A DNA stretch of 64,000 nucleotides, taken from positions 1,975,380 through 2,039,379 of the forward strand of contig CM119266.1 of the NCBI GenBank assembly GCA_051294375.1, written 5' to 3'. Position 1 is the first letter of the stretch. Each line of letters opens with the position of its first letter. The notes below the pieces were generated by a model. The model saw only the letters and a list, made by a program, of their open reading frames with translations. It was not told where the DNA came from and did no database searches. The position numbers were made by a program, and so were the translations under genes. Of this stretch, positions 469 through 56,904 are shown one piece after another. Origin of the DNA: Paraspadella gotoi (taxonomy: Eukaryota > Animalia > Chaetognatha).

Positions 469-619
469 TTGGTTCCCGATATCGCGGGTCGGGATTGCGT
501 GCACGTCGAAGATTCGCACGCAGCGTCGGCGCGTGACGCTACGTGCGACGCGCGAGATCGCGGACCGGAAGTGCAGACGAACTACGGACGCGTGAGAGGC
601 GTGGCTAAGTCCAAGGGCG
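469..619 (+). CDS. Domain 1 exon (N-terminal strand)
   Basis: cag|[50 protein letters not shown]|gtgagt; VxTxYGxVRG motif. Confidence 0.85.

Positions 620-56904: not shown

What the first reader, a model, noticed from the sequence alone, without database searches (positions are those of the whole stretch)
469..56904. Neuroligin-like receptor with tandem cholinesterase-like domains in one polypeptide
Seen: what looks like two neighbouring esterase genes joins in frame. Domain 1 ends ...[45 protein letters not shown] (22681-22802/24676-24798, phase 0) and continues |[14 protein letters not shown]...[13 protein letters not shown] (25804, phase 0). I find no TM after domain 1 and no signal-peptide exon before domain 2; the single TM and tail follow domain 2. 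Established: neuroligins, gliotactin and neurotactin carry one such domain, and neuroligins dimerise through it. Inference: this is a multi-domain cholinesterase-like adhesion molecule, possibly an intramolecular pseudo-dimer or an extended ectodomain. The two domains are very divergent and share few intron positions (after CxQ..R and at NFAxx|xPN), so they are an old duplication and not part of the local assembly noise.
Basis: partly seen in the sequence, partly recalled or inferred. Interest (0 to 1): 0.85.

Follow-up and report, generated by a model that had tools for sequence, protein, structure and literature searches.

The report
Double dead-esterase cell-surface receptor
This animal gene likely encodes one membrane protein with two esterase-like domains in tandem, both predicted to be inactive, and a neuroligin-style tail, so it probably works as a cell-adhesion receptor; similar two-domain proteins already sit uncharacterised in sea-urchin, ribbon-worm and flatworm gene sets.

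Summary
The two carboxylesterase-family domains are real. Both lack the catalytic serine, and the only transmembrane helix follows domain 2, with a long tail ending in a PDZ-type motif (ETRI). A spliced-RNA contig joins 15483/15963 and 16134/22681, leaves the genome at 22802 and runs on about 2.3 kb. Splicing into domain 2 fits that best, but those letters were not shown. I put one polypeptide at about 0.8. 'Neuroligin' is not established: trees do not place either domain, AU tests are inconclusive, and the neuroligin EQGEFLN motif and third Cys pair are absent. The architecture is not unique: 9 of 275 fetched proteins (six species) have tandem serine-less domains plus a C-terminal helix. What differs here is the long PDZ-ending tail. 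The intramolecular pseudo-dimer is untested. Verdict: a new variant of the cholinesterase-like adhesion molecules, of moderate interest.

The parts
469..619 (+). First visible exon of domain 1; the signal-peptide exon lies upstream or in a gap
   Evidence: Open frame, AG/GT ends. The RNA contig has 1624 nt upstream of 15307 and the known exons sum to 1513, leaving 111 nt unexplained
3934..5710 (+). Domain 1 exons 3934-4075, 4240-4347, 5043-5202 (5' end hidden in N gap 4668-5042) and 5535-5710; nucleophile elbow GHGIG (Gly for Ser)
   Evidence: PF00135 hits on all four; best PDB sequence hits of 5537-5710 are neuroligin-3, E 2.4e-12
7613..13522 (+). Domain 1 exons 7613-7768, 10282-10543 (Glu/Lys-rich insert), 12199-12338, 12899-13000, 13407-13522
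   Evidence: Join in one open frame with their neighbours; align to the family
15307..16134 (+). Domain 1 exons 15307-15483 (His kept, GDHFHD) and 15963-16134 (poly-Ser insert)
   Evidence: PF00135 E 3e-07; RNA joint 15482->15962 GT..AG at depth 44.6
22681..22802 (+). Last exon of domain 1 (FW helix) plus linker; noisy second copy at 24676-24798; 121 nt and phase-1 exit in the RNA
   Evidence: RNA joint 16134->22681 at depth 51.2; the contig leaves the genome at 22803 and continues 2326 nt; copies compared
23481..23497 (+). Candidate alternative acceptor (copy at 25484); entered in phase 1 it stops after five codons and would give a secreted domain-1-only form
   Evidence: Acceptor score 16.5/17.9 against 4.5-18.0 for 26 modelled acceptors; 1 of 1824 intronic AG sites scores as high. 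No donor of normal strength and no AATAAA before 25804. Not shown to be used
25804..25899 (+). First exon of domain 2 (noisy; other copies at 23849-23872 and 28578-28643); no ATG or signal peptide of its own
   Evidence: Acceptor score 13.5; copies aligned
31237..33578 (+). Domain 2 exons 31237-31363 and 33411-33578
   Evidence: PF00135 E 3.3e-11 and 9.3e-08
33579..38346 (.). Gap-rich stretch expected to hide about 80 codons of domain 2
   Evidence: Five N gaps; no tblastn or HMM hit
38347..41069 (+). Domain 2 exons 38347-38535 (elbow GAEAG, Glu for Ser), 39724-~39977 (noisy), 40685-40740, 40955-41069
   Evidence: PF00135 E 3.3e-4; frames
45795..48398 (+). Domain 2 exons 45795-45915 (YINW), 46562-46784 (Ala-rich insert), 48001-48168 (His kept, ATHLED), 48278-48398
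   Evidence: Open frame; PF00135 E 1.2e-4; alignment
53515..53673 (+). End of domain 2 (FW helix) and stalk
53854..53951 (+). Single transmembrane helix
   Evidence: Only 19-mer with mean hydropathy over 2.0, value 3.3
54142..56904 (+). Cytoplasmic tail exons 54142-54245, 54678-54853, (55517-55590 and 56487-56586, frame unresolved), 56677-56904 ending in ETRI-stop
   Evidence: Intact path skipping the two unresolved exons gives a tail of about 170 aa; last-exon frame strongly codon-biased, 23.2 bits against -22 and -28

Best explanation
The locus likely encodes one type I membrane protein of about 1,500 residues with two tandem, predicted-inactive carboxylesterase/cholinesterase folds, one transmembrane helix and a long tail ending in a PDZ-type motif, and it probably acts as a cell-adhesion or recognition receptor. 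Shown: two domains, loss of the nucleophile Ser in both, a single TM helix, and splicing out of the last domain-1 exon into a long continuing RNA. Inferred: the continuation is domain 2, in frame. Inferred mechanism: the folds are binding surfaces, not enzymes. Membrane-proximal domain 2 keeps the two helices that neuroligins dimerise through and would pair with a second chain, while domain 1 extends the ectodomain and adds a second ligand surface. The tail would dock on a PDZ scaffold at a junction or synapse. The partner is probably not bound in the canonical neurexin manner. A minor secreted domain-1-only form through the acceptor at 23481/25484 is possible.
For: Elbows GHGIG and GAEAG with His kept. 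RNA contig unbroken across 22802 for 2326 nt. An unspliced read-through would meet a 30-34 nt CT run and a highly transcribed repeat within 1747-1916 nt, while contigs here break at a shorter TCC run. A spliced path through domain 2 would end inside exon 54678-54853 if the two unresolved exons total 410-586 nt, which fits my estimate of 460-505. Domain 2 has no credible first exon: the candidate 23414-23489 is in frame in only one of two copies, its donor (-3.5) scores below all 25 modelled donors, and 4 such ORFs arise in 32.7 kb of intron. Domain 2 keeps YINW and DHFKAEKMHFW against neuroligin YTDW and DHYRATKVAFW, while domain 1 has YRQQ. The same layout exists in annotated proteins of other animals, and a model of the Diadema one folds as two esterase domains (pLDDT 85.1, pTM 0.79). 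Neuroligins, gliotactin and neurotactin are dead-esterase adhesion proteins (PMC10084454, passages).
Against: The letters after 22803 were not displayed. There is one run, whose RNA status the tool gives as a guess, although it skips introns at exact splice sites. The phase-1 exit makes the in-frame join depend on a base that the two noisy copies disagree on. The strong acceptor at 23481/25484 also starts with G and would stop domain 1. The YxxW and FW helices are also kept in shark and hemichordate domains that are not neuroligins, so they do not prove dimerisation. No expression, localisation or binding data exist; the adhesion function rests on analogy.
Confidence: 0.6

Rival explanations
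1. Two products rather than one: a secreted domain-1 protein ending just after the acceptor at 23481/25484, and a separate single-domain, neuroligin-like membrane protein starting from its own signal exon (candidate 23414-23489, phase-1 donor).
For: The acceptor scores among the strongest in the gene (1 of 1824 intronic AG sites as high). It starts with G like the RNA continuation, and phase 1 gives an early stop. The candidate signal exon would exit in the matching phase 1.
Against: No AATAAA before 25804, and a 2326-nt unspliced 3' UTR would cross repeats that break contigs. The candidate signal exon is out of frame in the second copy, has the weakest donor, and such ORFs arise by chance. 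Only about 320-370 nt separate the acceptor from exon 25804.
Confidence: 0.15
2. A true neuroligin orthologue that duplicated its domain long ago; the two domains form the four-helix-bundle dimer inside one chain and bind neurexin.
For: Domain 1's pairwise hits are led by neuroligins after one hemichordate protein (245 bits, then 238-220). GHGxG elbows also occur in unnamed exon fragments that resemble invertebrate neuroligins (that label is my recall). The tail ends T-R-I against neuroligin T-R-V. AU tests do not reject D1 or D2 with neuroligins (p 0.378, 0.182) or D1 with D2 (p 0.189). pTM 0.79 for the sea-urchin analogue suggests a defined domain orientation.
Against: Neither domain falls in the neuroligin clade (99/97) in any of three trees. 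The EQGEFLN motif, the HHC/CNF Cys pair and the PPDY motif are absent, and domain 1 lacks the YxxW tryptophan. No full-length invertebrate neuroligin of known identity was in the tree, and the model's geometry could not be inspected.
Confidence: 0.12
3. A member of the multi-domain surface carboxylesterase proteins of deuterostomes (shark three-domain, tunicate four-domain, ambulacrarian two-domain) in which the last active site has decayed, acting as a lipid- or ligand-binding surface protein or scaffold rather than in adhesion.
For: Domain 2's best hits are the membrane-proximal dead domains of the shark proteins (95 bits), with hemichordate second domains at ranks 9 and 20. One quick tree groups domain 1 with sea-urchin first domains (SH-aLRT 87), and the careful tree puts domain 2 in a weak group (82/60) with the membrane-proximal domains. 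A post-helix Cys is shared by domain 2.
Against: Those placements are weak and change between trees. The serine-less relatives have tails of 13-70 residues, against about 170 here with a PDZ-type end. Membership of that family would not exclude adhesion.
Confidence: 0.13

Closest known systems
Neuroligins (NLGN1-4; Drosophila Nlg1-4)
   Same: Dead cholinesterase-like ectodomain, single TM helix, long tail with C-terminal class I PDZ-type motif (PMC10084454 and PMC8526735, passages); first two disulfide pairs and His kept.
   Different: Two domains instead of one; no EQGEFLN motif, no HHC/CNF Cys pair, no PPDY motif; not placed in the neuroligin clade.
Cholinesterase-like adhesion molecules gliotactin, neurotactin, glutactin
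   Same: Catalytically dead esterase domain, likely used for adhesion (PMC10084454, passage).
   Different: None was among the fetched sequences, so relatedness was not tested.
Uncharacterised two-domain TM proteins: Diadema XP_071500051.1, Lytechinus XP_054767789.2, Lineus XP_064622620.1, Macrostomum PAA79327.1
   Same: Two full domains, both without the nucleophile Ser, short linker, one C-terminal TM helix. The Macrostomum pair even shares the GHG../GAEAG elbows.
   Different: Tails of 13-70 residues without a TRV/TRI end. Orthology not shown; the Macrostomum domains rank 217-372 of 381 in similarity. They are gene models, not characterised proteins.
Multi-domain surface carboxylesterases with some active sites: Saccoglossus XP_006825066.1, Acanthaster XP_022079595.1, shark three-domain (P0168, P0171), Styela four-domain (XP_077968891.1)
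   Same: Tandem domains with a dead membrane-proximal domain and one TM helix.
   Different: They keep at least one GxSxG domain; here both are dead.

Membership tests
Carboxylesterase type B / cholinesterase fold (PF00135) | Profile match and core motifs (SEDCL, elbow, NFA..G.P, FW helix) | tested here: met
   10 of 24 exon translations match, in two runs of the profile; alignment
Active carboxylesterase/cholinesterase | GxSxG nucleophile serine | tested here: not met
   GHGIG and GAEAG
Cholinesterase-like adhesion molecules | Dead esterase ectodomain on a membrane-anchored chain | tested here: met
   for domain 1 this depends on the inferred join
Cholinesterase-like adhesion molecules | Adhesion or partner binding at the cell surface | not testable with these tools
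   Needs expression and binding assays
Neuroligin | Single cholinesterase-like domain | tested here: not met
   Two domains, most likely in one chain
Neuroligin | Falls in the neuroligin clade | tested here: inconclusive
   Outside the 99/97 clade in the careful tree; AU p 0.378 and 0.182; long branches, poor invertebrate sampling
Neuroligin | EQGEFLN segment (neurexin-contact region; role recalled) | tested here: not met
   Absent from both domains against three vertebrate neuroligins
Neuroligin | Third Cys pair HHC...CNF (disulfide role recalled) | tested here: not met
   No Cys at either position in either domain
Neuroligin | Dimer helices (YTDW and FW..LVP) | tested here: inconclusive
   Kept in domain 2, partly lost in domain 1, but also kept in non-neuroligins
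Neuroligin | C-terminal PDZ-binding motif | tested here: met
   ETRI-stop against STTRV; motif only, binding untested
Neuroligin | PPDY tail motif | tested here: not met
   Present in the four neuroligin tails printed, absent here
Neuroligin | Neurexin binding, postsynaptic localisation | not testable with these tools
   No assay available
Deuterostome multi-domain TM carboxylesterases (unnamed) | Tandem domains, dead membrane-proximal domain, one TM helix | tested here: met
Deuterostome multi-domain TM carboxylesterases (unnamed) | Domain-by-domain orthology | tested here: inconclusive
   Weak, unstable groupings

The most novel reading that the evidence does not exclude
A neuroligin-lineage receptor whose two dead domains close into the four-helix-bundle dimer within one chain: an obligate asymmetric 'heterodimer' on a single membrane anchor, the long-tailed member of an overlooked bilaterian family of tandem pseudo-esterase receptors, with a secreted domain-1 decoy made through the alternative acceptor.
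Probability: 0.12. Interest if true: 0.8.

Novelty: new variant of a known kind. Interest (0 to 1): 0.48.

Why it matters
The characterised cholinesterase-like adhesion molecules carry one domain, and neuroligins need to dimerise through it. A natural two-domain version with a PDZ-type tail would test whether dimerisation can be hard-wired in one chain or whether the fold can be stacked to span a wider gap. The search also shows a scattered set of uncharacterised tandem dead-esterase membrane proteins across bilaterians, conserved among sea urchins, for which my eight searches of the open-access library found no description. The caveat is that multi-domain carboxylesterases in invertebrate deuterostomes were reported in 2012, so the architecture class is not new.

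Tried and rejected
No whole genome is held for this window. No run on record as RNA was listed; the single holder is an RNA guess. Reads were laid on 15200-23040 only, so the far side of the junction was not seen. Word-index protein searches with single exons found nothing (13 and 14 candidates, none scored), which is weak evidence. A metagenome scan returned 72 loci at 34-74% identity over short stretches, none recognisable as this gene, and I did not use them. One unnamed 89-aa fragment (P0029, 66% identical, same exon borders) is the nearest relative found but carries no context. Trees (111 rows FastTree; 47 rows quick; 32 rows careful after dropping 15 long or redundant rows) gave three different placements, and all three AU tests were non-significant. 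The single-sequence fold of the Diadema analogue failed (pLDDT 35.8). Foldseek on the alignment-based model barely separates neuroligin (1.1e-42) from CES1 (1.3e-40) or BChE (3.7e-39). No complex prediction was sent, because a pass would be expected from likeness to solved dimers. I rejected recent duplication or assembly artefact as the source of the two domains: they align only in short stretches (36% over 109 aa, 26% over 143 aa), unlike the 80-95% noisy copies. I rejected orthology with Macrostomum on elbow motifs alone (low ranks). Contig length does not by itself discriminate between models, since AATAAA sites also lie near 2.3 kb on an unspliced path. Johnson & Moore 2012 is not held. 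PMC5563082 passages gave nothing usable. The organism's lineage was not determined.

Full report
What is there. The window is microsatellite-rich animal DNA with 18 N gaps and several adjacent copies of the same stretch at 80-95% identity with many indels, which I read as noisy long-read gap filling. On the + strand, exons from 469 to 22802 build one carboxylesterase type B domain and exons from 25804 to 53673 a second. Ten of 24 exon translations match PF00135, and the profile restarts at 31237. Domain 1 joins in an open frame wherever the sequence is clean. Domain 2 does so from 40685 onward once the acceptor at 48001 is used; about 80 codons are missing in the gaps between 33579 and 38346. 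The two domains share only 36% identity over 109 aa and 26% over 143 aa, so they are an old pair. The elbows are GHGIG and GAEAG, with the histidine kept in both: both are predicted inactive. The only transmembrane segment is in 53854-53951. An intact path 53854-54853-56677 gives a tail of about 170 residues ending in ETRI.

Is it one transcript? One run holds the region (RNA by guess). Laid on 15200-23040, it skips the intron 15483/15963 at GT..AG (depth 44.6) and joins 16134 to 22681 (depth 51.2), with depth near zero over most of the 6.5-kb intron, so it behaves as spliced RNA. The 2528-nt contig that carries the second joint stops matching at 22803 and continues for 2326 letters that are not the genomic continuation. 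The continuing letters were not displayed. An unspliced continuation from the nearby acceptor would meet a 30-34 nt CT run and a copy of a repeat transcribed at depth about 23,000 within 1747-1916 nt, and contigs in this run already break at the shorter TCC run of exon 15963. A spliced path through domain 2 accommodates 2326 nt if the two unresolved exons total 410-586 nt, which brackets my estimate of 460-505. I put a single D1-D2-TM polypeptide at about 0.8.

Corrections to the junction. The contig aligns 112 letters to 114 window letters, plus 10 in the joint, so the exon is 121 nt and exits in phase 1, not 123 nt in phase 0. Codon bias at the exon end agrees (VPKQGYI 6.2 bits, PCPSKDTS -3.0). 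An in-frame join then needs exon 25804 to be one base shorter than assembled; its other copy is two shorter, so this is plausible but unproven. Where the two bases fall within the exon is unknown. There is also an acceptor at 23481/25484 as strong as the best in the gene (16.5/17.9; 1 of 1824 intronic AG sites matches it). Entered in phase 1 it stops after five codons. It has no good donor and no polyadenylation hexamer before 25804. It may be a chance pyrimidine tract or a minor secreted domain-1 form. A signal-peptide-like ORF at 23414-23489 could start a domain-2-only product, but it is in frame in one copy of two, its donor scores below all 25 modelled donors, and 4 comparable ORFs occur in 32.7 kb of intron.

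Relatives. An HMMER search with exon 5537-5710 and a profile search brought the set to 275 proteins. Both searches favour multi-domain hits, because scores add across domains. Of these, 133 have two or more full domains (many probably merged gene models; not checked one by one), 26 have hydrophobic segments only after the last domain, and 9 have no nucleophile serine in any domain. The nine come from Diadema (two species), Lytechinus (two), Lineus and Macrostomum. Hemichordate, starfish, shark (three domains) and Styela (four) proteins have the same layout with some active sites left. An earlier scan note on the shark protein agrees; it is an unchecked lead, not support. The nine serine-less proteins have tails of 13-70 residues, against about 170 here. 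AlphaFold2 on the Diadema protein with a 50-row alignment gives pLDDT 85.1 and pTM 0.79. That suggests a defined orientation of the two domains in that analogue, but I could not inspect the geometry and it is not the window's protein.

Is it a neuroligin? Among 381 domains, domain 1 scores best with a hemichordate single-domain TM protein (245 bits) and then neuroligins (238-220). Domain 2, which is incomplete, scores best with the shark membrane-proximal domains (95), with neuroligins and hemichordate second domains close behind. Three trees place the long-branched domains differently and never inside the neuroligin clade. AU tests reject nothing (p 0.189, 0.378, 0.182). Only vertebrate neuroligins and two doubtful invertebrate rows were available. 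In alignment both domains keep the first two Cys pairs but lack the EQGEFLN segment and the HHC/CNF pair; domain 2 keeps the YxxW and FW helices, and domain 1 lacks the first tryptophan. The roles of these motifs in neurexin contact and disulfide bonding are recalled, not taken from a call. It works like a neuroligin by architecture; it should not be filed as one.

Mechanism. Most likely a surface recognition receptor: two non-catalytic binding folds, dimerisation between chains through domain 2, domain 1 as a distal extension, and a PDZ scaffold on the tail. Every functional step is inferred from analogy to neuroligin, gliotactin and neurotactin (PMC10084454 and PMC8526735, passages seen). 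The intramolecular pseudo-dimer remains possible (about 0.12).

Literature. Eight searches of the open-access library found no paper describing a tandem dead-esterase membrane receptor; of most hits I saw only the listing. PMC12992692 (passages) states that cholinesterase-like genes of invertebrate deuterostomes undergo duplication and rearrangement, citing Johnson & Moore 2012 (PMID 22210164). That paper is not held; I recall, without having seen it here, that its abstract reports proteins with multiple carboxylesterase domains. Subscription papers, supplements and the ESTHER database were not searched and may already list this class.

Verdict. It is a new variant of a known kind, interest 0.48.

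Noticed in passing
window 49533-52135, minus strand: A nested gene inside the intron 48399-53514 with von Willebrand A-like motifs (DGSFS, LTDG; label recalled) and a hydrophobic helix near its end. Single-exon Pfam scans gave no significant family.
   Followed up: partly
window ~58686-63930, plus strand: A multi-exon dicarboxylate/amino-acid symporter (SLC1/EAAT-like) gene directly downstream; PF00375 E 1.9e-11 on 62431-62646.
   Followed up: partly
window 22012-22330, with copies at 23987-24322, 27398-27502, 30368-30469, 54481-54524, 59964-60002: A short dispersed repeat transcribed at very high depth (about 23,000) in many variant contigs; SINE-like by inference.
   Followed up: partly
window ~17400-21600: A roughly 4-kb GC-richer insert with broken ORFs on the minus strand in the intron 16135-22680, probably a decayed or noisy retroelement; nine ORFs gave no significant Pfam hit and RNA cover is low.
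   Followed up: partly
window 21995-31476, 40533-43795, 47792-48125: Adjacent 80-95% identical, indel-rich copies of the same stretches, which double several exons; probable assembly artefacts.
   Followed up: yes
P0168, P0171, P0003, P0117, P0174, P0175, P0022, P0020, P0033: Sharks, a tunicate, hemichordates and echinoderms have uncharacterised multi-domain esterase TM proteins, nearly all with a serine-less membrane-proximal domain; the ambulacrarian first domains form one clade (99/96). Possibly one ancient family.
   Followed up: partly
P0001 (Macrostomum, 3380 aa): Six esterase-like stretches with alternating GHG-type and G.EAG/GDDAG-type elbows, resembling three repeats of a two-domain unit.
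   Followed up: no
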